Source: Patescibacteria group bacterium
GTDB taxonomy: Bacteria; Patescibacteriota; Gracilibacteria; UBA1369; PNNO01
Length of the DNA stretch: 26,960 nt
NCBI GenBank assembly: GCA_042568575.1
Contig: JBHPIO010000015.1
Span: forward strand, 1 to 26,960
Direction: 5' to 3'
Below, piece after piece: positions 7,038-22,192 of this stretch. Made by a program: the position numbers and the translations under genes. Position 1 is the stretch's first letter. Each line of letters begins with the position of its first letter. The notes beneath the pieces are model-generated. The model saw only the letters and a list, made by a program, of their open reading frames with translations. It had not been told where the DNA came from and made no database searches.

Positions 7038-10000
7038 ATGGCAGCACAAAGAAACAGAAAGCTTAGAGATAATCTGCAACCAGAGGATGTTCACACTTTG
7101 GCTGAATATGCGGAGTATTGTTATGAGTCTAATAGTGCAGAGGCTCAGAGGATTCAAAATGATGCTGACAAACAAGATTTACTCGCATCAAGTGACAGTT
7201 ATCGTCAGTTAGCAGAAGAAATGAGAGATGCAATAGACAGAGGAACTCAATTTAAATCCCGAGGCGATTTAGAAAATCACTTTAATGCTAGAAGGGTTGA
7301 CTTTGATAAGGATCCTATAAGGACTAGTTTGATTAATTCTGCAAGAAGATATTTTAATGAGGCACTTAATGTTGCATCAAAAGTTTCATTTGATGTTGTT
7401 AGAGGAAATCATGATTTTCAGACTTGGCGTCAAAGTAAACTAGATTCACATGGTAATTTTATTAGTGCATTAAGTCCGAGCGTACCTTTCGGTGCAGATC
7501 CGGCTACAATTCCAACTTATGTAGAATTGAGACAGATGCAAAGGGATCTTTATGATAGGGAGCAGAATGTGGTTGCTGCAGAACAAGATGCGGCTCAAAA
7601 AGTATTAGATGCCGAACAAGCAACAGTGGATGCAAAACAATTAACACAGGAAGCAGAGCAAAAAGATCAAGAGGCTGAACAAAAGAAACAAGAAGTAGAA
7701 GCAAAAGAGCAAGATTTGGTTGCTAGAGAAGCACAACTTGCGGCAGGTTTACAGCAATTGGCACAACGAGATCAAGCTCAAAATCAACGTGAAGATGCAC
7801 TGAATCAACAAGAGGCAGGATTTGCACAAAGAGGTAGTGATTTAAATCAACGTGAGACCGATGCTTCACAACTTGAGGCTGGCTTGAATCAACGTGAACA
7901 GAATATCGGTCAGCAAGAAGCAGACCTAAATCAACGAGAGCAAGATATAGGTGATAAAGAACAAGTATTAATTACAAAAGGGGACGAAGCCCTTGCAAAA
8001 GAACGTGCCTTGGCAGCAAAAGAGCAGGAAGTAGCTGCACGGGAACAAAAGGCAAGACAGACGATGGATGAATTAGTTAATGACAGGAAAGAATTAGGAG
8101 AAAAAGAAGCACAACTTGCTCAGCGAGCAAGCGAACTTGATGCAAAAAGTGAAGCATTAAGGGTAGAGGCAGGTAGATTAGCTGCAGAAGATCAAAGGCT
8201 TCAAGATTTGGATGCGGAATTAACTCGACGTGAAGCAGCAATAGCTGGAGAAGGTGGTGAAACACCGACACCAGTTCCAACACCTGAGCCAGATGCTGAT
8301 TTAGCGAAACTAAGAGAAGAATTACAAAGAAAAGAGCGAGAATTGTCAGCTCTTCAGGTTCAATTAGATGGTAAAGGTGCTGAGCTTGACGCAAGAGAAA
8401 GTACAGTACAAGAAATGGAAAGATTACTAGAAGATAAGAAGACAATGCTTGCTGAGCAATCGGCGAGATTAGATGCGAGAAGCGCAGAATTAGATAGACG
8501 AGAAAGAGAAATAGCGGGTAAGGGTGGAGGAACACCTACTCCTGTTCCAACTCCAGAACCAGAACATGGTCCTGACACGGGTGGAGGAGCGCCTGAACCA
8601 GATCCACTTCTACCGCCACATCCAAAGCCTCCGGTGCCAAAGCCAAAGCCAAGGCCGGAACCAGAACCAGAACCAGAACCAGAACATGGTCCTGACACGG
8701 GTGGAGGAGCGCCTGAACCAGATCCAATTCTACCGCCACATCCAAAGCCTCCGGCGCCCAAGCCAAAGCCGGGAGTAGCAACTCCTGCTCCAGAACCAAA
8801 ACCAGCGCCAGAGCCAGAAGGTGGTGAAGCACCTGAACCAGCTCCAAAGCCGGCAGGACCGACACTAAAGCCGGGTGTAGCGAAACCATCAGGTGGAACT
8901 GAGCCAGAACCAGGTGCGGCAACTCCAACTCCAGCACCAAAACCATCTGCAGGTATTAAAGGAACAGGACCCGCAGAAGCTGCTCCAGAAACAACAACAG
9001 GATTAGATTTAGGTCCACATATTGAATTGGTAGAAGGTGTTATAAAGGTGCCAGTTGATAATTATTTTGAATCAAATAAGCGACCTGAGAACAAGGATAA
9101 GATTTTCGACTTCATGGATAAATATCGAACAGAGTTTCCTAAAAGTTTGCGAGAGAAACTAGGAGAGTTTGCTCGAGAAAAATCAGAAGGATTATCAAGT
9201 GCAGAAATAAGCGCACAAGTGAAAGCAATAATTCTTGAAGAAATGAAGCAAAGAATTAATGACGAATTATCAAGTACCGAAGAATTTCAACCAAGTGAGA
9301 GAAATGATTTTGCGGACAAGGTAGATGGAGTGCTCAAAGTACTAGGAGTGAGAATAAAAGGATCAGATGAAATAAAAGAATATTTAAAAGCTGACTACGT
9401 GAAAATGTGGTCGGAATTTAGCCGAACAATTAAAGAAAAAGATTACAAAGCAGAAGAATTACAACGATTTTTGTCTGATTGGGGAAGTGATAAACAGCCT
9501 GGTAGATTTGTAAGAGCAATCACTGCTGATTTAGAACGCGTGGGTGCCAAATTAGATGAATCGGAACTTGGTCAATTACAAAAAGAATATAACGCTTTAA
9601 AAGGTGATTTTGCATTTTGCAAAAGTTGTATTGAGTATACTGGGAAAGATTGGTTTGGACGCACAAAAGAAGATTGTATTCGAATATGGGGATTAAATGA
9701 GGATGCATGGGATGGGATTGGATCTGAATTGCCAGAAGAACTGGAAGAGGAATCGGGTGATGATGGCGGTGATACAGGCGGAGGAGCACCAGCTCCAGCG
9801 CCAACAGGAGGTGCAAAACCAACTCCACCACCGGCAGCAACTGGACCGATTCAACCAACACCTCCACCAGTTTCTCCACAGCCTGCTCCGGCACCTGAGC
9901 CTGAGCCAAAACCAGCGCCAGGCCCAACAGTGACAGATATAGAAGGTGAAGAACCAACTCCACCGCCAGAGGTGGATGTTAAAGGAGCAACAACTGCAGT

Positions 10001-12356
10001 GGCGCCAGAAACTACAACTGACAAAACTCCACTCAGAGAGATTATGGATGCGGCAGGAGAAACAGAGCCACCAAAAACACCGAATCAAGTTCTCAAGGAA
10101 ATTTTAGACAAAATACCTGCAACTTGGCCTGAACTTAGAAAAAAAATAAACGAAATTGAAATAAGAAAAGGGGAATCTTTAGCCGACTTGGAAAAAAAAG
10201 TAACCGAACTTATATCTCAAAGTATTACTATTTACTGGATGGAAAATTGGAATGGGCGTTATTTAAAAGGGGAGACAATCCCAAATGATGAGCGGGAAAG
10301 AATAGTTAGAAATATTAAAGGTACTTTGAAAATAATAGGCTTTCCGGCGGAAATGGTACCGAATTTTAGTAGAGAAAATGAAAGAGAATTCTTGAGACCG
10401 GTATTATTAGAACCGATAAAAGAAAGATGGATTCTATTTAAAGACTGGATAGAAAATCCTGATCCAGCAGAGGTGAGACTTACCAAATTTGATTCGAATT
10501 TGCGTAATTATGTAGGAAATGACTTGGAAGAATTGAATGCAAAATATGAAGATATTGAAGTAACTGATGATGAAATAGCAGCTTTAAAAGCACAACATGA
10601 AGCTTTATTAGATGATAGAGACTTTAGTAAGAAATGTATTGAGACACCAAGAAATTCAGGAAGAGATTGGAATTACCGTACAATGGAAAGCTGTATTAAT
10701 TTATGGGGAATTACTCAGGCAGACTGGGAGGCAGGAAGATTATATCCAGAAGAAGAACCAGTAGATGATGGAATTGATACAGGTGGGGGAACGCCAGAAC
10801 CAGAACCGGCTCCTACACCACAGCCAGCTCCAGCTCCTGCACCGAAACCAGAGCCTGCTCCGGCACCACAGCCGCAGCCTGAACCAGAACCTGCGCCAGC
10901 TCCAGAACCGCAACCCGAACCAGCCCCAGCCCCTCAACCTAGTCCAGTTCCGCCGGCAGGTGAAGTTCAACCAACACCTCAGCCTCCGGTTGGCCCAACA
11001 ATTATCGGTACGCCACCTCCAATAGGTGGGCAACCAATTCCGCCAGCAGCGCCAATTCCAGCGCCGGCTCCAACTCCTGAACCCGAGCCAGCACCGACAC
11101 CTCCACCGGCAGCAGAAGTCGCAGGTGAAGGCCCGTCGCCAGCTCCTAAAGCACAAATCGTAGATGGCGCAGAAGAAGAACCACCAACTCAACCTGAACA
11201 ACCAGAAGAAGAACCAGGGCTGGGACCAAAAGCTCCACCAGCATCTCCTCTAAAACCAGGAGGCGGAAAAGCACCGGAACCGGAAGGCAAAACAGCAGGA
11301 AAACCTGCAGATGTTGAACCAGAATCTGACGTAAGAGGACAAGGCCCGGAAGGCTTAGGAGAAATGAAAAGAGATGCGGAAGTTAGTGAAGAACGAGAAG
11401 CAGTAAAAGTATTAATTGCTACACTTAAAGGTCTTAAAGCAAATCAATTAAGAGAGGCAGGGAAATTACTAAAAGGGGAGAAAAAAGGGCTTAGAGATAT
11501 TGATCGTTTAGAAACAATCGCAACTTTAGTAAAAATCTTTGACTCTATAAAAGGTTTCTCAAAACAAGATCAGAGTGAATTTGAAGAATATCTTGATCAA
11601 CAAGCAATCGACCTCCCTGAAAATTTAGAAACTGTTGAGGCAGAAGCAAAAGCTCTTTATGGAAAATCTATTCCAGCAGTAAACGATGCAATCGGTAAAT
11701 ATTTAGAGGCAATCAAAGCAATCCGAAGGGAAGGTCTAAAAAAAGAAGCCGCTACAGCTGATTTAGACGAAGATTTCACAGCTGCTCCAGAAGGCTCTCC
11801 AGAAGCAGAATTCAAAAGAGCCGGCACAACAGACGTCGCTGGTGTATTGAGAGAGTACGATGTTCTTGAAGCAACGCAGGAACTTGAAGCAGCAATGAAG
11901 ACTATTGAGCCGTTTGTTCTTAAAAGGATAGGTAGCTTACTAGAAAAAGGTCAAACTCATGAGCATGCATTTCAATTAAAACACCTACTATCTTCTCTTA
12001 TTAAGTCACTTAATAAATTATATGAATTAGATCGAGAAAAATGGAGTGAAGAGCTTTTGTCGGATATTGATACTCGATTGGCAGGAATATGGGCTAATGA
12101 CGCAAACGAAACGAAATTCCTAGAAGATCTTGAAATTTTGAAAGGAGTTGATAAAACATCTTCAACTGCATTATTAGCACTTTTCAAACTAATCAAAGCA
12201 CTTGAGGCAAAAGGCAAAGCGCCTGGTTCAAAAAAAAAAGCTGAAACGCCGGAAGTAGAGCCATCATTTGAAGAAAAACTTGGAGGCTTGGATTTTAAAC
12301 GAATCCAGGCAGCGCGAGATGCAATTTCAAAATCTGATCCAGATAACGAATCTTAA
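7038..12356 (+). CDS. Giant acidic modular protein (1772 aa): coiled coil, Pro/Glu-rich linkers, duplicated globular domain
   Basis: Uninterrupted 5.3-kb ORF with 14-aa LNQ(R/Q)E repeats, PEP/PAP-rich linkers and two similar Cys/Trp-containing domains. No signal peptide or TM seen; no family recognised. Confidence 0.93.
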   Translation: MAAQRNRKLRDNLQPEDVHTLAEYAEYCYESNSAEAQRIQNDADKQDLLASSDSYRQLAEEMRDAIDRGTQFKSRGDLENHFNARRVDFDKDPIRTSLINSARRYFNEALNVASKVSFDVVRGNHDFQTWRQSKLDSHGNFISALSPSVPFGADPATIPTYVELRQMQRDLYDREQNVVAAEQDAAQKVLDAEQATVDAKQLTQEAEQKDQEAEQKKQEVEAKEQDLVAREAQLAAGLQQLAQRDQAQNQREDALNQQEAGFAQRGSDLNQRETDASQLEAGLNQREQNIGQQEADLNQREQDIGDKEQVLITKGDEALAKERALAAKEQEVAAREQKARQTMDELVNDRKELGEKEAQLAQRASELDAKSEALRVEAGRLAAEDQRLQDLDAELTRREAAIAGEGGETPTPVPTPEPDADLAKLREELQRKERELSALQVQLDGKGAELDARESTVQEMERLLEDKKTMLAEQSARLDARSAELDRREREIAGKGGGTPTPVPTPEPEHGPDTGGGAPEPDPLLPPHPKPPVPKPKPRPEPEPEPEPEHGPDTGGGAPEPDPILPPHPKPPAPKPKPGVATPAPEPKPAPEPEGGEAPEPAPKPAGPTLKPGVAKPSGGTEPEPGAATPTPAPKPSAGIKGTGPAEAAPETTTGLDLGPHIELVEGVIKVPVDNYFESNKRPENKDKIFDFMDKYRTEFPKSLREKLGEFAREKSEGLSSAEISAQVKAIILEEMKQRINDELSSTEEFQPSERNDFADKVDGVLKVLGVRIKGSDEIKEYLKADYVKMWSEFSRTIKEKDYKAEELQRFLSDWGSDKQPGRFVRAITADLERVGAKLDESELGQLQKEYNALKGDFAFCKSCIEYTGKDWFGRTKEDCIRIWGLNEDAWDGIGSELPEELEEESGDDGGDTGGGAPAPAPTGGAKPTPPPAATGPIQPTPPPVSPQPAPAPEPEPKPAPGPTVTDIEGEEPTPPPEVDVKGATTAVAPETTTDKTPLREIMDAAGETEPPKTPNQVLKEILDKIPATWPELRKKINEIEIRKGESLADLEKKVTELISQSITIYWMENWNGRYLKGETIPNDERERIVRNIKGTLKIIGFPAEMVPNFSRENEREFLRPVLLEPIKERWILFKDWIENPDPAEVRLTKFDSNLRNYVGNDLEELNAKYEDIEVTDDEIAALKAQHEALLDDRDFSKKCIETPRNSGRDWNYRTMESCINLWGITQADWEAGRLYPEEEPVDDGIDTGGGTPEPEPAPTPQPAPAPAPKPEPAPAPQPQPEPEPAPAPEPQPEPAPAPQPSPVPPAGEVQPTPQPPVGPTIIGTPPPIGGQPIPPAAPIPAPAPTPEPEPAPTPPPAAEVAGEGPSPAPKAQIVDGAEEEPPTQPEQPEEEPGLGPKAPPASPLKPGGGKAPEPEGKTAGKPADVEPESDVRGQGPEGLGEMKRDAEVSEEREAVKVLIATLKGLKANQLREAGKLLKGEKKGLRDIDRLETIATLVKIFDSIKGFSKQDQSEFEEYLDQQAIDLPENLETVEAEAKALYGKSIPAVNDAIGKYLEAIKAIRREGLKKEAATADLDEDFTAAPEGSPEAEFKRAGTTDVAGVLREYDVLEATQELEAAMKTIEPFVLKRIGSLLEKGQTHEHAFQLKHLLSSLIKSLNKLYELDREKWSEELLSDIDTRLAGIWANDANETKFLEDLEILKGVDKTSSTALLALFKLIKALEAKGKAPGSKKKAETPEVEPSFEEKLGGLDFKRIQAARDAISKSDPDNES
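8553..8770 (+). repeat. Intragenic 120-bp-period tandem duplication with a (CCAGAA)4 microsatellite
   Basis: 8553-8650 versus 8673-8770: 98 bp with 3 mismatches; CCAGAA four times at 8661-8684. Confidence 0.95.
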
Positions 12357-15300
12357 ATGACTGAAGAACCACAAGGACAATTAGATGATGTTCTGGAAAA
12401 ACTACAAGCCTTTGAAGGCCTGGATTCAGACCAAATTAGCCAATTGCTTGCAGAAAACGCTGAAGCATTACCTCAAGATTTAAATCCAATCAGACAAGAA
12501 GCAACAGAAAAGCTAGCAGAATTCGACGACGTTCTAGATATTGTAAATGGCTTCCTTACCGCAGTTCAACAAGTTCGTGATGCAAAAGGTGAAGCGCCAC
12601 GTGCAGCAGATACAGGTGCAGAAGAATCCGAAGAAGCAAAGATCGAAAGATTATCTAGACCAATAATAGCTGCATGCGAAAAGGTAAGGGAAAAGTTTAA
12701 ACGTATCACAATTCTCCCACGTACGTTGTTTGATGAGATTAGATCTGTTCTTGGTGAAGAATATGAATTTATAACTGATTATCTGTTCCATTATGCCGTT
12801 ATTCAAAAAGATGGTTATTCGTTTTTATTGCCAAATCCTCGTTCGATAGGAATTCAAGATCTTACTTATTCTAATTATGACATTATAGACTTAGGAGATC
12901 ATAGCTGGTTGCAAGACGATCACGAATTGTTAAAACTTGCATATTGTGAAACCAAAGATTACAAAGGTGAAAATAGCGAATTTGTAAAAGGACTTATTGA
13001 TAACAAAAATCCTGAGGCAGAATTAAAACGGGTTGTTTTAGAATTTATACGGGAATTAGAAGGGAATGAAATTCCGGATGATTTTGATGCAAGGAAAGAA
13101 TTTGAAGAAGCAATGGAGTCTGTTACTTCTGAAAAAATGTGGACTGTTTTAAGAAATTTTCAAGTTGATCACAGTGAAGAAGATGTGGGCAAAATATTGA
13201 TTTCTTTAATGAATAATATAATTGAATTATCCGAAAAAAAATTAGAATTAGAGAGGCTATTGGAATTGTCCAAAATGGCTTTTAAGCATCGTGTTCATAC
13301 TTGTGACAGAGATGACTTCGGTGGTTTAGTAGATCACTTAAGGAAAATTAATGATGAATCCCCTGAGTGCTCAAAGGCGATATTAGCCTTGCTCAAGGTT
13401 TATTTGAGAATAAAATCTGACTATGAGTCTGAAGCAGCCCCAAAATCTGAAGAATCAGCAGAAACCGCAGAAGAACCAAAAAAGCTAGTATTCCAGCAAT
13501 TAAAATATGGGAAAAAAGTTCAATATTCGGGTGGCCCTATTGTAAAGGGTTATGATCACGACCCTACTGGGGCATCAAAAGACTTTCCATTTAAACGTGA
13601 AGAATGGCGAGCTGTTTTCCCAGGGGTTCAAGGCTACAGTTCCAATTACCCATGGGAAGATGAAGGCGGCCAAATTCTTGTAAAGGAAATGGAACAAGAT
13701 GGGCAAAAATATATTGTTTGTCAAAGATATAAAATGCGTTCAGAAGGTGGCGACAGTGGACGTGGAAGAAATTATCATGAGCAACACTATATAGCAATTC
13801 CGGCAGAAGAGTGGTCAATTGCTGCTATTCCAAAACTTGCAGAAGTGTTAAGCACAACGCCAATTCTCCAGGACGATGATAAGAATTGGGAAATGTCGCC
13901 TATCGAGATTGAAGTTCCATTTGCAGATACAAAACTTCCGGAAGGTTGGTTTGATGAATATGTTCAGGATTTGGTTGCACATATTGTTTCAGGAAAACCA
14001 ATACAACTAGCGGATCCAGATATGAGCGAAAAAGAATTCTTGCAAAAGTTATACTATGCACTTTTGTGCGTTCCTCTATCAATTGCAAGCAAAATAACTT
14101 TTGGTACTGGACTTTATGATGAAGGTTCCAGATATAACGCGGATATTGCTCATTGTCGTGAAGCATCATATACCGGCGTAAGAAAAGTAGGCGGCGAATG
14201 GAAGGCATATTATGAGGGAGAAGATAGAGATGCTGCACGGAAAGCATATAATGAAAAAGCTAAAGATGATGAATTTGGAGGAAAATATATTAAGCATTTG
14301 AAAAAAGTAGGCGTAGATAAAGCCGAACAATTAAAAGACGTATTACAAGCAGTTCCAACCTTGCTAATAAGACGATCAGCTTATAAACGTTTTGGAATGA
14401 ACCCAGATACAAGCGGGGAAGAAGAGCTTGTTAAAGAGTGGGTGGAGGTGAAGGGTGCAAGTAGGGAAGCTCCAGTAGAAGCAGCCCCAGAATCCGAAGA
14501 AGCAAAAATCGAAAGATTAGGGAAACCAATCGCTGACGCCTGGAATAAAGTAAGACAAGAAAATGATATGTCCGTGCAAGGTATGGAAGAGGAAGCAATG
14601 AATAATCATGCGAATGAAATGATCAACAAGGTATTAGAAGAATTAGGCGATGAATATGAACTTATTGGAAGCCACATTATAAATGCCAACATCAGATCGG
14701 GAGATTATATCTTTATGATTACAAGCCCGGCATATGATGCTATTTGGCAGAAGACCGGTCCATATCAATCCTATGAATTGATTAACAGCGATGATGAACT
14801 TTATAACCTTGCAGCAAACTCTAAGCTAGTTAAACCTGCCTATTGCAAAGTTGAAGATTTCAGAAACCAACCTTTTAAAGACGATATCTACGAAAAAGGC
14901 TTAATAGACGTCAATCCTGAAAGAGAGGTTAAAGGTGCGCAGTCGGAAGCTGCAGAACTAGCAGAAGAGGAAGCTAAGTATACAAAGATACTTATGGATG
15001 CATACGAGGAAGTATATGCCGAAATTCAGGCTCAAATTGAAAGTGATCCAGACTTACAAGGAGTCGAAGGAAGAGAGAAAAGAAATATTCTTGAAAGTCC
15101 AAATAAACATTACCAACTAAATTTTACAAATTTGCTTTATGAAAAATTCCCAGTAGAGTTCCCAATACACCCTGGCTACTATTTCGGACACCTTATTCTC
15201 CCATCCGGCAGAATGTTGGTTTTTTATAATCCGTTTTCAACAAGACATATAGTAGAGGTAAGCAAATACTTTGAAGGAACAAATGGCGAAGATGATTTTG

Positions 15301-15488
15301 ATATTAATGAACCACTTGATTACAAAATGCTTAAGCCGGCAATTATTGATAAAATAGATTGGGAAGATCCTAAATTTGCTAGATTTAAAGCTCTCGGGCC
15401 TACAAGGGATTCACATACTATCGATAGTGGACTATGCCATGTTATATCTCCCGGGTTAGTTGAAAGTAGGAAAAAAGAAGATGTTTAA
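12357..15488 (+). CDS. Large acidic modular protein (1043 aa) with a repeated domain and a possible GAP1/DENN-like central domain
   Basis: Uninterrupted ORF starting immediately after the previous stop in the same frame. Repeated ESEEAKIERL...LG(E/D)EYE...K(L/P)AYC...KGLID units. Confidence 0.92.
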   Translation: MTEEPQGQLDDVLEKLQAFEGLDSDQISQLLAENAEALPQDLNPIRQEATEKLAEFDDVLDIVNGFLTAVQQVRDAKGEAPRAADTGAEESEEAKIERLSRPIIAACEKVREKFKRITILPRTLFDEIRSVLGEEYEFITDYLFHYAVIQKDGYSFLLPNPRSIGIQDLTYSNYDIIDLGDHSWLQDDHELLKLAYCETKDYKGENSEFVKGLIDNKNPEAELKRVVLEFIRELEGNEIPDDFDARKEFEEAMESVTSEKMWTVLRNFQVDHSEEDVGKILISLMNNIIELSEKKLELERLLELSKMAFKHRVHTCDRDDFGGLVDHLRKINDESPECSKAILALLKVYLRIKSDYESEAAPKSEESAETAEEPKKLVFQQLKYGKKVQYSGGPIVKGYDHDPTGASKDFPFKREEWRAVFPGVQGYSSNYPWEDEGGQILVKEMEQDGQKYIVCQRYKMRSEGGDSGRGRNYHEQHYIAIPAEEWSIAAIPKLAEVLSTTPILQDDDKNWEMSPIEIEVPFADTKLPEGWFDEYVQDLVAHIVSGKPIQLADPDMSEKEFLQKLYYALLCVPLSIASKITFGTGLYDEGSRYNADIAHCREASYTGVRKVGGEWKAYYEGEDRDAARKAYNEKAKDDEFGGKYIKHLKKVGVDKAEQLKDVLQAVPTLLIRRSAYKRFGMNPDTSGEEELVKEWVEVKGASREAPVEAAPESEEAKIERLGKPIADAWNKVRQENDMSVQGMEEEAMNNHANEMINKVLEELGDEYELIGSHIINANIRSGDYIFMITSPAYDAIWQKTGPYQSYELINSDDELYNLAANSKLVKPAYCKVEDFRNQPFKDDIYEKGLIDVNPEREVKGAQSEAAELAEEEAKYTKILMDAYEEVYAEIQAQIESDPDLQGVEGREKRNILESPNKHYQLNFTNLLYEKFPVEFPIHPGYYFGHLILPSGRMLVFYNPFSTRHIVEVSKYFEGTNGEDDFDINEPLDYKMLKPAIIDKIDWEDPKFARFKALGPTRDSHTIDSGLCHVISPGLVESRKKEDV

Positions 15489-20101: not shown

Positions 20102-20130
20102 TTGAAAAAAACCTCATTTTTTGCTATAAT
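20102..20130 (+). promoter_or_regulatory. Sigma70-type promoter of mscS
   Basis: TTGAAA, 17 nt, TATAAT with extended TG. Confidence 0.8.
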
Positions 20131-20152
20131 TAACAGATTAAAAAACAAAAAT

Positions 20153-21262
20153 ATGCTCGATTTCTTACTAAACATACAAACCGCATTTGCTCAGGTCACT
20201 ACAGGATCTGTAACCGGCGAAACAGAAACGCAGCTTTCAGGGCTATTAGAATTTTTCCTCATAAAAATTCCTTCCTTTATTGCAGCAATCATTGTTTTCG
20301 CACTCTTTTACCTGCTTTCAAAGGCCATAAAGGGGATTGTGGAATCAAGACTTTCGCAATCATTGGAAGAAAATAAGGAAGTTCAGATACTTGCAGGACG
20401 AACAGCAGCAACAACAACCGTTATCATCGGTGCGACAGTAGCGTTAAACATCGCGGGAATCGACCTGACAGTGATAATCGCTGCAGCCGGTTTCGGTGTA
20501 GGTTTCGCTTTAAAAGACATCATAATAAACTTTTTTGCTGGAATAATGATCCTTGCGCAGAAGCAGTTCACAATTGGAGACTTTATTAACGTAGAGGGCA
20601 CAATCGGAAAAATCGTAGAGATCCAAACTCGTGCGACTATCCTTCAAGCTCTTGATGGAACAAAAGTAGTCGTGCCAAACTCGGAACTATTCTTAAAACA
20701 AGTTACCAGCTACACAAGCAACGCATTCAGACGAATCGAAGTAGTGGTTGGTGTTGAATACGATACAAACCTCAACCAAGCAGTTGAGACATGTTACGCA
20801 GCAATTAAAGGAACAAATGGCGTTCTAATAGAGCCAAAACCAGCGGTTCTTGTAGATGAATTCTCGGATAGCTCGATCAGTCTAATCGTTCGAGCGTGGG
20901 TAGAATCACGAAGCGGATGGCTTCAAATAAAGAGTGACCTTGCTGTAAGCATCAAAACAGAATTTGATAAAGTTGGTATTGGCATTCCATTCCCAATCCG
21001 TACAATTGTTTATGATAAAGATGCTAAGGCGGAAAAAGCAGCAAAGCCAGCATGGGTTGCGCAGGAACCAAAACTGGAAGCAGTTCCAGTCCCAGCAGAG
21101 CCTCAAGTAGCGCCAGCAGCTCAGGCACCAGTTCAAGGTCAAGCAGTCCCAGTAGCGCCAGCTGCACCGGCAGTTATACCGCAGGCAGTAACAAAACCTT
21201 CAAAAGATCAGCCGGGTTCAGCCTTCCTAATTGGAAATCCAGAAGATAAAAAAGAATCTTAA
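20153..21262 (+). CDS. mscS: Small-conductance mechanosensitive channel family protein with Pro/Ala-rich tail
   Basis: GFGVGFALKDIIINFFAGI, FTIGDFI, VVVPNS, V.Y.T and GIGIPFP motifs. ATG 20153 chosen because the TTG at 20102 is part of the -35 box. Confidence 0.93.
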   Translation: MLDFLLNIQTAFAQVTTGSVTGETETQLSGLLEFFLIKIPSFIAAIIVFALFYLLSKAIKGIVESRLSQSLEENKEVQILAGRTAATTTVIIGATVALNIAGIDLTVIIAAAGFGVGFALKDIIINFFAGIMILAQKQFTIGDFINVEGTIGKIVEIQTRATILQALDGTKVVVPNSELFLKQVTSYTSNAFRRIEVVVGVEYDTNLNQAVETCYAAIKGTNGVLIEPKPAVLVDEFSDSSISLIVRAWVESRSGWLQIKSDLAVSIKTEFDKVGIGIPFPIRTIVYDKDAKAEKAAKPAWVAQEPKLEAVPVPAEPQVAPAAQAPVQGQAVPVAPAAPAVIPQAVTKPSKDQPGSAFLIGNPEDKKES

Positions 21263-21323
21263 CCTTTCGTCCTCTCGTTACTTTCATAAGGACTCATCAG
21301 TACCGTTTTTAACGGTAGAGGTT
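21261..21323 (-). ncRNA. Type III hammerhead ribozyme
   Basis: Minus strand reads AACC-UC^-UACCGUU-aaa-AACGGUA-CUGAUGA-GUCCU-(uau gaaa gua acgag)-AGGAC-GAAA-GGUU. The CUGAUGA/GAAA/UH core is complete, with stem I 7 bp, stem II 5 bp and stem III 5 bp. Predicted cleavage after C at 21318. Confidence 0.9.
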
Positions 21324-21503
21324 GGGGACTAGTGTTCGGAATCGCGGTCTATAAGACCGGCCTACTTGACGAACGTCCCCCTTTTTTTGTTGGCAGTGCT
21401 CCTGTCCCCGAGTAGGCGAAGCATCGTTGCCGGTGATTACCTCACTATTGGTGCCGGCTTCCCGACTCTATGACATAACGCTGTGAGGCATAACTGACGG
21501 TAC

Positions 21504-21533
21504 CTAATTGGGGTGCAAATCATGATAATTCAT
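21504..21533 (-). CDS. Mini-ORF 2, MNYHDLHPN
   Basis: AAAGGAGG 6 nt upstream of ATG; 9 codons then TAG. Translation unproven. Confidence 0.35.
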   Translation of the reverse strand: MNYHDLHPN

Positions 21534-21579
21534 GCTTGCCCTCCTTTCGTAGTGAAAGTCAGTTCCTCATTTGATGCGC

Positions 21580-21609
21580 TCAAACGGGGACAAAAGCGAT
21601 TTTGTTCAT
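21580..21609 (-). CDS. Mini-ORF 1, MNKIAFVPV
   Basis: AGGAGGT 4 nt upstream of ATG; 9 codons then TGA. Translation unproven. Confidence 0.35.
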   Translation of the reverse strand: MNKIAFVPV

Positions 21610-21634
21610 TGGCACCTCCTATATGCACATATTA

Positions 21635-21663
21635 TTTTTAACATAAAATACGAAAGATGTCAA
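21635..21663 (-). promoter_or_regulatory. Putative promoter of the hammerhead-terminated RNA
   Basis: Perfect TTGACA (21663-21658), 17 nt, then TAAAAA with extended TG; the -10 box is imperfect. Confidence 0.55.
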
Positions 21664-21763
21664 TGCTCGTTGGAATTACACTAATTTTATCACATATTAC
21701 AACTTTTTGGTTGATAAAAGTCCATCGTGGTGCTAGTTTGTTGCCCGGTATTTTTAGAGATAT

Positions 21764-21791
21764 AAAGAAAAACCCTCATCTAAGATGAGGG
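21764..21791 (-). terminator. Intrinsic terminator
   Basis: CCCTCATC-tta-GATGAGGG hairpin followed on the minus strand by TTTTTCTTT. Confidence 0.8.
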
Positions 21792-22157
21792 GAAAAAATT
21801 CAATTCTATCAATCGAGTTTATTAGAAAAACGACTGAGAATCATGCGAATTTTGTTTTTGTTTTACGGTGACCAGTCCATATTTTTGTTTTTGCTTTGCT
21901 TTGGCATAGTTTTTAGTCGTGCCACCGACCGTCTGTTTAGTGTGCGATCTCAAGTAACCGAAGCTACAAGGATGCACCAGACAAAAGTGAGCGGTCCAGT
22001 TGGTCAGGAAAGGGCCATCACAGAGCAAAAAATGAAACCAATTGAAAACTTCAATTAGTGCACACTTTCTGCTATGCTTATCGCGGTCTGATTTTCAAAG
22101 GTCTGATACTAGGCTCGACAAGGGCATCATATAATCTGTATCTTTTATCGAGCGTTT
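21768..22157 (-). ncRNA. Putative ~390-nt structured RNA (class not recognised)
   Basis: Bounded by a near-consensus promoter and an intrinsic terminator, with no convincing CDS. Has a cUUCGg tetraloop hairpin (21954-21967), a long G-U-containing hairpin (22024-22073) and a 5' stem (22145-22153/22113-22121). Confidence 0.6.
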
Positions 22158-22163
22158 CATGTC

Positions 22164-22192
22164 AGTATATAAAATTAGCCCACGCGAGTCAA
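22164..22192 (-). promoter_or_regulatory. Sigma70-type promoter pointing into the intergenic region
   Basis: TTGACT (22192-22187), 17 nt, TATACT (22169-22164). Confidence 0.75.

What the first reader, a model, noticed from the sequence alone, without database searches (positions are those of the whole stretch)
21261..21323. Intact type III hammerhead ribozyme abutting the mscS stop codon in antisense
All core nucleotides (CUGAUGA, GAAA, UH) and three stems are present. The cleavage triplet is CUC rather than the more common GUC/GUA. Stem II carries a 5-nt bulge plus a GAAA-capped extension that could contact loop I, as natural fast hammerheads do. Inference: it may replace a terminator and separate the RNA from antisense read-through into mscS.
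Basis: partly seen in the sequence, partly recalled or inferred. Interest (0 to 1): 0.8.

Follow-up and report, generated by a model that had tools for sequence, protein, structure and literature searches.

The report
Hammerhead ribozyme ending an acquired RNA cassette
A genuine-looking self-cutting RNA (type III hammerhead) sits at the very end of a roughly 520-base, strain-specific insertion that butts against the end of a channel gene, where it most likely trims the 3' end of the insertion's own transcript; it is a new example of a known kind of ribozyme.

Summary
Minus strand 21323-21261 carries a complete type III hammerhead: core CUGAUGA and GAAA, an A15.1-U16.1 pair, C17, and three stems. 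Rfam Hammerhead_3 matches it full length at 36.5 bits (E 1.5e-6 for the genome), below the curated cut-off of 48.5. It fits a widespread bacterial class: 55 of 66 pattern matches in public genomes have the same architecture, with strong covariation in stems I and III. Half of those loci carry Patescibacteria titles.

The ribozyme lies at the 3' edge of a ~520-bp insertion (~21241-21761) that the same-genus genome lacks. The insertion has a promoter-like site and a ~310-nt G+C-rich, strongly folding region with no ORF over 32 codons. A closing hairpin directly precedes the ribozyme. A second family member (G006) has an analogous insertion that also ends at its hammerhead.

Across the class, hammerheads sit 15-160 nt after a same-strand ORF (45 of 51) and behind a stable hairpin. 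About a third are followed by a terminator, so "replaces a terminator" is only partly supported.

Most likely role: a self-cleaving 3'-end module of an acquired cassette. Cleavage and expression are untested. Verdict: new member of a known kind, moderate interest.

The parts
21261..21323 (-). Type III hammerhead ribozyme. Stem III 21323-21319 with 21265-21261; C17 at 21318; predicted cleavage between 21318 and 21317; stem-loop I 21317-21301; core CUGAUGA 21300-21294; stem II and loop 21293-21269; GAA 21268-21266.
   Evidence: Sequence. RF00008 full-length match at 36.5 bits. Class model R1 gives 71 bits, but this sequence was in the training set. Class covariation.
21324..21380 (-). Stable hairpin domain closed by a G-rich/C-rich stem that ends directly at the ribozyme. 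It would be the 3'-terminal structure of the released RNA.
   Evidence: MFE -22 kcal/mol for the 60 nt upstream; the same domain appears. Class-wide, the 45 nt before the hammerhead fold at -14.3 kcal/mol against -10.7 for controls at equal G+C, p 6e-6.
21318..21628 (-). Predicted ~310-nt released RNA, 50-53% G+C in a ~40% G+C neighbourhood. No ORF over 32 codons. It holds two 9-codon ORFs behind strong Shine-Dalgarno-like sites (21609-21580 and 21533-21504).
   Evidence: ORF list. Composition. Folding z -3.5 with 0 of 100 shuffles as stable; the opposite strand folds about as well, z -3.3. Mini-ORFs were read.
21634..21663 (-). Sigma-70-like promoter candidate of the cassette (TTGACA, 18-nt spacer, AAAAAT).
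   Evidence: Consensus scan, 10 of 12 matches. Not evidence of function.
21241..21761 (.). ~520-bp insertion absent from the same-genus genome G001. Its edge on the mscS side lies 0-22 nt beyond the ribozyme's 3' end.
   Evidence: blastn and junction read-out against L003. No terminal direct or inverted repeats. A ~94%-identical contig in run X2 spans the mscS-ribozyme junction.
20102..21262 (+). Convergent MscS-family channel gene. Its last ~7 codons differ from G001, and its stop codon overlaps the ribozyme by 2 nt.
   Evidence: Pfam MS_channel_2nd and MS_channel_3rd. Junction comparison.
21773..21791 (-). Intrinsic terminator of the conserved upstream noncoding RNA ('Unit A'). In G001 it lies within ~10 nt of the mscS stop and serves both convergent units.
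   Evidence: Terminator scan. Compensatory changes across 11 genomes. G001 junction.

Best explanation
This is a real type III hammerhead ribozyme that forms the 3'-terminal module of a small, horizontally acquired transcription unit. The ~520-bp unit was inserted between the mscS stop codon and the terminator shared with the neighbouring noncoding RNA gene. Transcription from the unit's own promoter-like site (about 21630) would give a G+C-rich, highly structured RNA. The hammerhead would fold co-transcriptionally and cut after C17 (21318|21317). That would release a ~310-nt RNA ending in a stable hairpin, a six-base tail and a 2',3'-cyclic phosphate. The ribozyme body and any read-through antisense to mscS would be left as a separate 5'-hydroxyl fragment. 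The module thus gives the cargo RNA a defined, structured 3' end whatever lies downstream of the insertion site.

Shown: the motif, its class membership, the insertion, and the class-wide position after genes and behind a hairpin. Inferred: transcription, cleavage, and the benefit of the defined end. The protective effect of a cyclic phosphate plus hairpin against 3' exonucleases is general knowledge that I recall; it was not tested here.
For: Motif and significance:
- RF00008 matches full length with every core position, E 1.5e-6 per genome, and is the only hit in the genome.

Class membership:
- Of 66 matches to a core-plus-stem-II pattern in 64 genome loci, 55 have a stem-loop I directly 5' of the core, a UH site and a stem III.
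- On the 56-sequence alignment, 90.9% of cells pair against 71.7% in shuffles. The covariation score is 0.358 against 0.082, reached by 0 of 500 shuffles. Slid controls pair at 46% or less.
- G006, found by model R1 and not by the pattern, has a compensated stem II, GUUC/GAAC instead of GUCC/GGAC.

Insertion:
- G001 goes from the mscS stop to the terminator within ~10 nt, where the window has ~520 nt.
- In G006 a ~430-nt unit (promoter-like site, 67-codon ORF, hairpin, hammerhead) is missing at the syntenic junction of G003, G010 and G012, and homology resumes within ~6 nt of the ribozyme's 3' end.

Position in the class:
- A same-strand ORF of at least 60 aa stops within 160 nt upstream in 45 of 51 loci, against 25.5% of random positions. 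For ORFs of at least 100 aa it is 43 of 51 against 13.4%.
- The 45 nt before the ribozyme are more stable than controls.

Conservation:
- In the ~94%-identical X2 contig, the listed differences put 1 change inside the 63-nt ribozyme (21311, loop end of stem I).
- Ten changes plus 2 indels fall in the 178 flanking bases. Two further changes are unlisted and near the contig ends.
Against: - The score is below Rfam's gathering threshold (36.5 against 48.5).
- There is no expression or cleavage evidence: no RNA run holds the stretch.
- Unlike 45 of 51 class members, no ORF of at least 60 aa precedes this copy, and nothing over 32 codons lies in the insert. The cargo is therefore undefined and could be a decayed gene.
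- The cargo RNA has no detectable relative. There were 0 credible hits in 204 other genomes of the order, none in phage records, and no nhmmer cross-match with the noncoding cargo of L028/L030.
- The folding z-score is as strong on the other strand.
- The promoter is a consensus match only.
- The class alignment was filtered by my own script for a stem I of at least 4 bp and a stem III of at least 3 bp, and the pattern fixed stem II and part of stem III. Percent paired is therefore inflated, although the covariation counts are not explained by that.
- The conservation contrast in X2 is weak (1 of 63 against about 12 of 178).
- Loop-loop tertiary contacts needed for fast cleavage at cellular Mg2+ could not be assessed.
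Confidence: 0.6

Rival explanations
1. Molecular fossil. The insertion is the remnant of a gene cassette whose ORF has decayed. The hammerhead is still intact in sequence but now serves no purpose.
For: No ORF over 32 codons in the insert, whereas 45 of 51 class members follow an ORF of at least 60 aa. The cargo has no relatives. The element is sporadic: 5 of 150 other genomes of the order, one copy each.
Against: The core is perfect and the stems are intact. The X2 variant keeps the ribozyme almost unchanged while the flanks differ. tblastn with 46 cargo proteins from other loci finds no decayed homologue in the insert. The cargo region folds far better than shuffles (z -3.5). Two other genomes (L028, L030) carry an 84%-identical noncoding cargo of similar layout with compensatory changes, so noncoding cargo exists in this class.
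Confidence: 0.2
2. Regulator or insulator of mscS. The ribozyme exists chiefly to cut antisense read-through, or to create a processed antisense RNA, and so controls mscS mRNA stability or translation.
For: It overlaps the mscS stop codon by 2 nt, and there is no convincing terminator before the mscS coding sequence. Convergent ORFs are enriched after class members.
Against: G001 and the other family genomes have mscS without the element. Class members sit next to unrelated genes, and many are followed by a terminator or a same-strand gene. Cleavage does not stop the polymerase, so antisense RNA would still be made.
Confidence: 0.08
3. One end of a ribozyme-bounded mobile or circular RNA, viroid- or retrozyme-like.
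For: In two independent cases the inserted DNA ends at the ribozyme. Type III hammerheads are the kind used by such agents (recalled).
Against: There is only one hammerhead in the genome by RF00008 and by R1. The second R1 hit, at 20.7 bits, lacks the stems. No other Rfam ribozyme scores at E up to 10 in 21000-22100. No repeats flank the insert. No reverse transcriptase or integrase is in the window.
Confidence: 0.03
4. Chance resemblance to the hammerhead consensus.
For: The score is below the Rfam gathering cut-off. RF00008 also gives sub-threshold matches at E up to 1 in 3 of 14 control genomes.
Against: E 1.5e-6 per genome. The copy is 85-87% identical, including the long loop II, to hammerheads in unrelated genomes. 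Its placement behind a hairpin at the end of an insertion is as in other class members.
Confidence: 0.02

Closest known systems
Rfam RF00008, Hammerhead_3 (type III hammerhead ribozyme)
   Same: All conserved core nucleotides, the A15.1-U16.1 pair, C17, three helices with stem III open, and closed loops on stems I and II. Full-length model alignment.
   Different: It scores 36.5 bits, below the 48.5-bit gathering cut-off, mainly because of a 15-17-nt loop II and unmatched outer stem III pairs. It is encoded in a bacterial chromosome, not in a viroid or satellite RNA.
Bacterial hammerheads of Perreault et al. 2011 (PMC3088659; passages read)
   Same: Chromosomally encoded bacterial hammerheads that flank single genes of varying identity. 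Processing of transcripts into gene-length RNAs was proposed there. Several class members found here follow phage-type genes: Tad4, a sigma factor, and a PurZ-like synthetase.
   Different: That paper stresses proximity to integrase and prophage genes and clustered ribozymes. Here there is a single copy in a core chromosomal neighbourhood without phage or integrase genes. It stands behind noncoding cargo, in a lineage (Patescibacteria) for which my two literature searches found no hammerhead report.
3'-UTR self-cleaving ribozymes as mRNA-processing elements (review PMC6765202; one passage read)
   Same: Position after the coding or cargo region, with the suggested effect of defining transcript ends with different stability.
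   Different: The review states that the purpose is still undefined.
Viroid, satellite and retrozyme type III hammerheads
   Same: Same ribozyme topology.
   Different: Those work in pairs or on multimeric transcripts to give unit-length or circular RNA (recalled). Here there is a single site and no repeat.

Membership tests
Hammerhead ribozyme, type III (RF00008) | Conserved core C3-U4-G5-A6-N7-G8-A9 and G12-A13-A14 | tested here: met
   21300-21294 and 21268-21266 on the minus strand; aligned to the model consensus.
Hammerhead ribozyme, type III (RF00008) | A15.1-U16.1 pair and a non-G nucleotide at position 17 (the NUH cleavage site) | tested here: met
   A21265 pairs with U21319, and C17 is at 21318; the triplet is CUC. 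The NUH rule itself is recalled.
Hammerhead ribozyme, type III (RF00008) | Three helices around the core with stem III open and stems I and II capped by loops | tested here: met
   Model alignment, MFE fold and script check: stem I 7 bp, stem II 5 bp, stem III 5 bp.
Hammerhead ribozyme, type III (RF00008) | Score at or above Rfam's curated gathering threshold (48.5 bits) | tested here: not met
   36.5 bits. This is a curation threshold, not a structural feature; the E-value is 1.5e-6 per genome.
Hammerhead ribozyme, type III (RF00008) | Helices supported by covariation among relatives | tested here: met
   56-sequence alignment A1. All 7 stem I pairs and 4 of 8 stem III pairs show changes on both sides. 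Covariation score 0.358 against 0.082, reached by 0 of 500 shuffles. Stem II is compensated in G006. Caveat: the sequences were pre-filtered for pairing by my script.
Hammerhead ribozyme, type III (RF00008) | Loop I-loop II tertiary contact that allows fast cleavage at physiological Mg2+ | tested here: inconclusive
   Loop II sequence is conserved among the four closest copies (window, L028, L030, L082). No complementarity to loop I was seen by eye, and no tool models the contact.
Hammerhead ribozyme, type III (RF00008) | Site-specific self-cleavage giving 2',3'-cyclic phosphate and 5'-OH ends | not testable with these tools
   No RNA run holds the stretch.
Prophage-associated bacterial hammerhead arrays (Perreault et al. 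2011) | Location near integrase or prophage genes, often several ribozymes flanking genes | tested here: not met
   A single copy in the genome. The window's genes are core functions (MutS, LexA, MurG, FtsW, LspA, AroE, MscS, PurN and others) with no phage or integrase domain.
Ribozyme-bounded circular or retro-mobile RNA (viroid-like, retrozyme-like) | Two ribozyme sites or a terminal repeat bounding the unit | tested here: not met
   One hammerhead only. No other ribozyme family at E up to 10. No flanking repeats.

The most novel reading that the evidence does not exclude
The hammerhead marks a class of portable mini-cassettes in Patescibacteria and some other bacteria: own promoter, small cargo, protective hairpin, and a type III hammerhead as the last element. 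These cassettes land in the short gaps between convergent genes. The ribozyme supplies a context-independent RNA 3' end. In the two insertions mapped here it coincides with the edge of the mobile DNA. Cargo in the same bacterial order includes proteins of counter-defence type: a Tad4-family Thoeris inhibitor and a Csx3-family protein. The window's cargo, a ~310-nt structured RNA without an ORF, could therefore be a noncoding member of such an arsenal, or a new RNA class.
Probability: 0.2. Interest if true: 0.7.

Novelty: new member of a known kind. Interest (0 to 1): 0.4.

Why it matters
Hammerheads are known in bacteria, but their biological role there is still open (review PMC6765202, passage read). 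This copy adds little as a ribozyme. Its setting is clean, though: a single copy at the exact end of a small insertion, with the empty site preserved in a sister genome, and a second independent insertion of the same design in the same family.

The class-wide regularities found here are a position 15-160 nt after an ORF, a stable hairpin just upstream, a frequent convergent neighbour, and sporadic single copies. Together they give a testable picture of hammerheads as 3'-end modules of acquired genes. They also point to Patescibacteria as a lineage where this can be studied. Finally, the case shows that Rfam's gathering threshold misses this long-loop-II subclass.

Tried and rejected
Searches that found nothing or led nowhere:
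- The Rfam gathering scan of the window gave 0 hits.
- RF00008 in 60 relatives gave 0 hits at E up to 0.01 under stricter filters. It missed G006, which R1 later found.
- The viral contigs pattern scan gave 0 hits. Distant blastn of the insert against phage records gave no match.
- A specific loop-II pattern scan of metagenome contigs gave 1 hit (L082) with only ~110 nt upstream, so it was no help for the cargo RNA.
- The look-up of sequencing runs listed no RNA holder and only small shares. Among the laid contigs, only X2 covers the ribozyme and its flanks. X3 holds a 38-nt hammerhead piece from an unlike context. X1 and X4 cover only neighbouring conserved parts.

Homology of the window's cargo RNA to the L028/L030 cargo:
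- By eye, all three share a Shine-Dalgarno-like hairpin, a following palindromic hexamer and a closing hairpin.
- nhmmer finds no cross-match at E up to 10, so I claim only similar layout.
- The L028/L030 cargo was not found in 59 other relatives of G061.

Other leads:
- A cargo-as-decayed-gene test by tblastn with 46 cargo proteins gave nothing credible; the best hit had E 0.002 over 38 residues.
- Terminal repeats or a target duplication of the insert: none reported. An A-rich 13-nt likeness at both edges seen by eye was dropped.
- The second R1 hit in the genome (C27, 20.7 bits, E 0.05) has a CUGAUGA-like string but no stems, so it was rejected.
- Synteny tests for two more order members: L096 has no alignable relatives. 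L095 lies in a repeat-rich array, so an empty site could not be defined.
- Supplementary files of the papers were not opened. The Perreault et al. supplements list individual bacterial hammerheads and might already include members of this subclass.
Full report
**Observation.** The minus strand of 21323-21261 reads, 5' to 3', as follows. A five-base stem III strand comes first, then C17 at 21318 and a 17-nt stem-loop I. The heptamer CUGAUGA follows, then a 25-nt stem II with a large loop. GAA comes next, and then the stem III partner beginning with A15.1. Rfam's Hammerhead_3 model aligns over all 54 positions to 21325-21259 with every core position matched. It scores 36.5 bits, with E 5.7e-6 on the 1.1-kb stretch and 1.5e-6 for the whole 1.2-Mb assembly, where it is the only match. 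The score is under the family's gathering cut-off of 48.5, so the default scan of the window is empty. The loss comes from a nine-base insertion in loop II and unmatched outer stem III pairs. Thermodynamic folding alone recovers the three stems but is not exceptional (z -1.6). The ORF 20102-21262 on the plus strand is an MscS-family channel (Pfam MS_channel_2nd and MS_channel_3rd). Its stop codon overlaps the ribozyme's last two bases.

**Is it a real hammerhead?**
- I scanned one genome per species (genome contigs) for the core plus the stem II and first stem III bases of this copy, with a free loop II. That gave 66 matches in 64 loci.
- My script then asked for a hairpin ending directly at the core, a U plus non-G before it, and at least three stem III pairs. 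55 of the 66 passed, and 11 did not.
- On the alignment of these 55 plus the window (A1), 90.9% of cells form pairs, against 71.7% after shuffling partners. 178 cells carry changes on both sides, against 52.6. The covariation score is 0.358 against 0.082, reached by 0 of 500 shuffles. Sliding the partner by 1-3 columns drops pairing to 46% or less.
- All seven stem I pairs and the outer stem III pairs covary. Stem II could not, because the pattern fixed it.
- The pre-filter inflates percent paired, but not the both-sides changes.
- A covariance model built from A1 (R1) found one copy in another genome of the same family, G006, at 57.9 bits. That copy has GUUC/GAAC in stem II where the pattern had GUCC/GGAC, a compensated change independent of my pattern.
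- The closest copies are L028 and L030, from two small genomes titled Nitrospirota. They are 85-87% identical to the window's ribozyme over 65-68 nt, including the long loop II. A metagenome contig (L082) has the same loop II type.
- I conclude that the window's element belongs to a genuine, widespread bacterial type III subclass that Rfam's threshold partly misses.

**Lineage.**
- Of the 64 loci, 32 carry record titles naming Patescibacteria lineages (Magasanik-, Sacchari-, Gracili-, Peregrini-, Peri-, Davies-, Shapiro-, Parcubacteria or 'Patescibacteria group'; counted).
- Two hammerhead loci found in the window's own order are identical to loci titled Candidatus Gracilibacteria and Candidatus Peregrinibacteria. 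The window's organism, with a 1.2-Mb assembly at 82% completeness, is therefore most likely a member of that branch.
- Two literature searches for hammerheads together with Patescibacteria or 'candidate phyla radiation' gave 0 papers and 1 irrelevant paper.

**Setting in the window.**
- The 970-bp gap between mscS and the next plus-strand gene (a CofE-like ligase) holds two minus-strand units.
- The first unit, about 22160-21770, has a conserved promoter, conserved blocks, stems with compensatory changes and a strong terminator. It is present in 12 of 12 genomes of the family and matches no Rfam family.
- The second unit holds the ribozyme and is not conserved. In the same-genus genome G001, alignment runs up to about 21219-21240 and resumes at 21762. 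There the mscS stop is followed within about ten bases by the terminator hairpin.
- The window therefore has a ~520-bp insertion (about 21241-21761), or G001 has a precise loss. The ribozyme's 3' end lies 0-22 nt from the edge on the mscS side, and the last seven mscS codons are new.
- The insert contains a promoter-like site at 21663-21634 (10 of 12 consensus positions).
- After it comes a stretch of 50-53% G+C in a ~40% region with no ORF above 32 codons.
- That stretch folds well beyond shuffles (z -3.5), though the complement does too (z -3.3).
- A hairpin domain (21380-21324, -22 kcal/mol) closes exactly where the ribozyme begins.
- Two nine-codon ORFs behind strong ribosome-binding-like sites are present (read). 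In the predicted fold, both sites are base-paired.
- No flanking repeats were found. The 27-kb window otherwise encodes core functions and no phage or integrase domain.
- A ~94%-identical contig in a marine metagenome run (X2) spans mscS, the ribozyme and 80 nt beyond. Of its listed differences, one lies in the ribozyme (21311, at the loop end of stem I). Ten substitutions and two indels lie in the flanks. This is a weak sign of constraint.

**A second insertion of the same design.**
- In G006 the hammerhead follows a promoter-like site, a ribosome-binding site, a 67-codon G+C-rich ORF and a hairpin. It overlaps the last codons of a convergent lgt-like ORF (my reading of its sequence; not scanned against Pfam).
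- At the syntenic junction, G003, G010 and G012 have 33, 86 and 25 nt where G006 has about 430. Homology resumes within about six bases of the ribozyme's 3' end.
- In both mapped cases, the ribozyme is thus the last element of the inserted DNA.

**Class-wide context.**
- Among 51 other hammerhead loci with at least 400 nt of upstream sequence, 45 have a same-strand ORF of at least 60 aa whose stop lies within 160 nt upstream. At random positions in the same loci the figure is 25.5%.
- With ORFs of at least 100 aa, the figures are 43 of 51 against 13.4%.
- A convergent ORF stop lies within -30 to 160 nt downstream in 27 of 51 loci (29.9% at random). For ORFs of at least 100 aa it is 21 of 51 (13.7% at random).
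- The 45 nt preceding the ribozyme fold at -14.3 kcal/mol on average (n = 59). Windows 100-250 nt further up fold at -10.7 (n = 236) at equal G+C; Mann-Whitney p is 6e-6.
- A terminator-like site follows within 100 nt in 19 of 60 loci, against 73 of 1200 random windows.
- The preceding proteins are unrelated to one another: 47 clusters among 52.
- Across 46 scanned proteins, 20 Pfam families appear, each in a single member. They include an M32 peptidase, an adenylosuccinate synthetase, a sigma factor and Tad4. Eleven PHROG families also appear, each once.
- In the window's order, R1 finds one copy in each of 5 of 150 other genomes. This is a lower bound, since only 35 candidates per genome were scored. 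Their cargo includes a Tad4-family protein (91 bits) and a Cas_csx3-family protein (23.5 bits, cut-off 21). Three have no Pfam family.
- The cargo ORFs shown look much richer in G+C than the flanking DNA. This was judged by eye and not measured.

**Interpretation.** The regularities are a position just after a gene or cargo, a stable hairpin immediately upstream, cleavage six bases after that hairpin, sporadic single copies, foreign-looking cargo, and insertion edges at the ribozyme. They fit a self-cleaving 3'-end module that travels with small acquired transcription units. Cleavage would leave the cargo RNA with a hairpin and a cyclic phosphate at its end, free of whatever follows: a terminator tail, a downstream gene, or, as here, antisense mscS sequence. 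This agrees with earlier suggestions that bacterial hammerheads process transcripts into gene-length RNAs (PMC3088659, passages read). It also agrees with the view that 3'-UTR ribozymes affect expression while their purpose remains undefined (PMC6765202, one passage read). For this locus, where the insertion left no room and no convincing terminator, it may still describe the practical effect.

**What the window's cargo is remains open.** L028 and L030 show that noncoding cargo exists in this class. Their 84%-identical ~280-nt upstream regions contain no ORF and show compensatory changes in predicted hairpins. Their layout resembles the window's. No sequence homology between them and the window's cargo can be demonstrated, however, and the window's cargo has no relatives in 204 genomes of its order. 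A decayed cassette with a still-intact ribozyme is therefore the main rival.

**Verdict.** This is a real and probably active type III hammerhead, a new member of a known kind. It sits in an informative but unproven role as the terminal module of an acquired cassette. Nothing about expression or cleavage could be tested here.

Noticed in passing
window 21770-22192, minus strand: A conserved ~390-nt noncoding RNA candidate. It has a conserved promoter, several invariant blocks, stems with compensatory changes (18 of 70 predicted pairs) and a terminator with compensatory changes. It is present in 12 of 12 genomes of the family. There is no conserved ORF and no Rfam match. It may be a lineage-specific RNA class.
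   Followed up: partly
window 21851-21984; L014 (G000 contig 12, 85928-86056): A ~130-nt part of that RNA has a 70-75% similar second copy elsewhere in the same genome and in seven other genomes, some from other families of the order. The second locus has no Rfam match at E up to 0.1.
   Followed up: partly
L093 665-1384 and L096 1134-1436: In two genomes of the same order, the gene just before the hammerhead encodes a Tad4-family protein (Thoeris inhibitor, 91 bits) and a Cas_csx3-family protein (23.5 bits). Both belong to families that act on cyclic-nucleotide immune signals (recalled), which is unexpected cargo in small symbiont-type genomes.
   Followed up: partly
L095 233-2488: The hammerhead-bearing gene of G152 lies in an array of small genes, each preceded by a repeated ~40-nt promoter-like element ending in TATAAT (4 copies). 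Pieces of the array recur at several places in that contig and in other genomes.
   Followed up: no
L045 221-270 and 788-837, L044; L046 and L066: Some contigs carry three hammerheads of this class 0.5-1.4 kb apart, each after a small ORF. This resembles the clustered arrangement described for prophages.
   Followed up: no
window 7038-15488, plus strand: Two adjacent giant ORFs (1772 and 1043 aa) without any Pfam family at E up to 1e-5.
   Followed up: no
L028 5960-6370 and L030 965-1380, minus strand: An 84%-identical ~390-nt noncoding unit (promoter-like site, hairpin over a ribosome-binding-like site and an 8-codon ORF, long-range helix, closing hairpin, hammerhead) in two small genomes. 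It was not found in 59 of their relatives.
   Followed up: partly
Genome-contig loci L039, L042, L053: Near-identical hammerheads and cargo proteins occur in records titled Magasanikbacteria and in records titled 'uncultured Gammaproteobacteria'. Either the cassettes move widely or some bin labels are unreliable.
   Followed up: no
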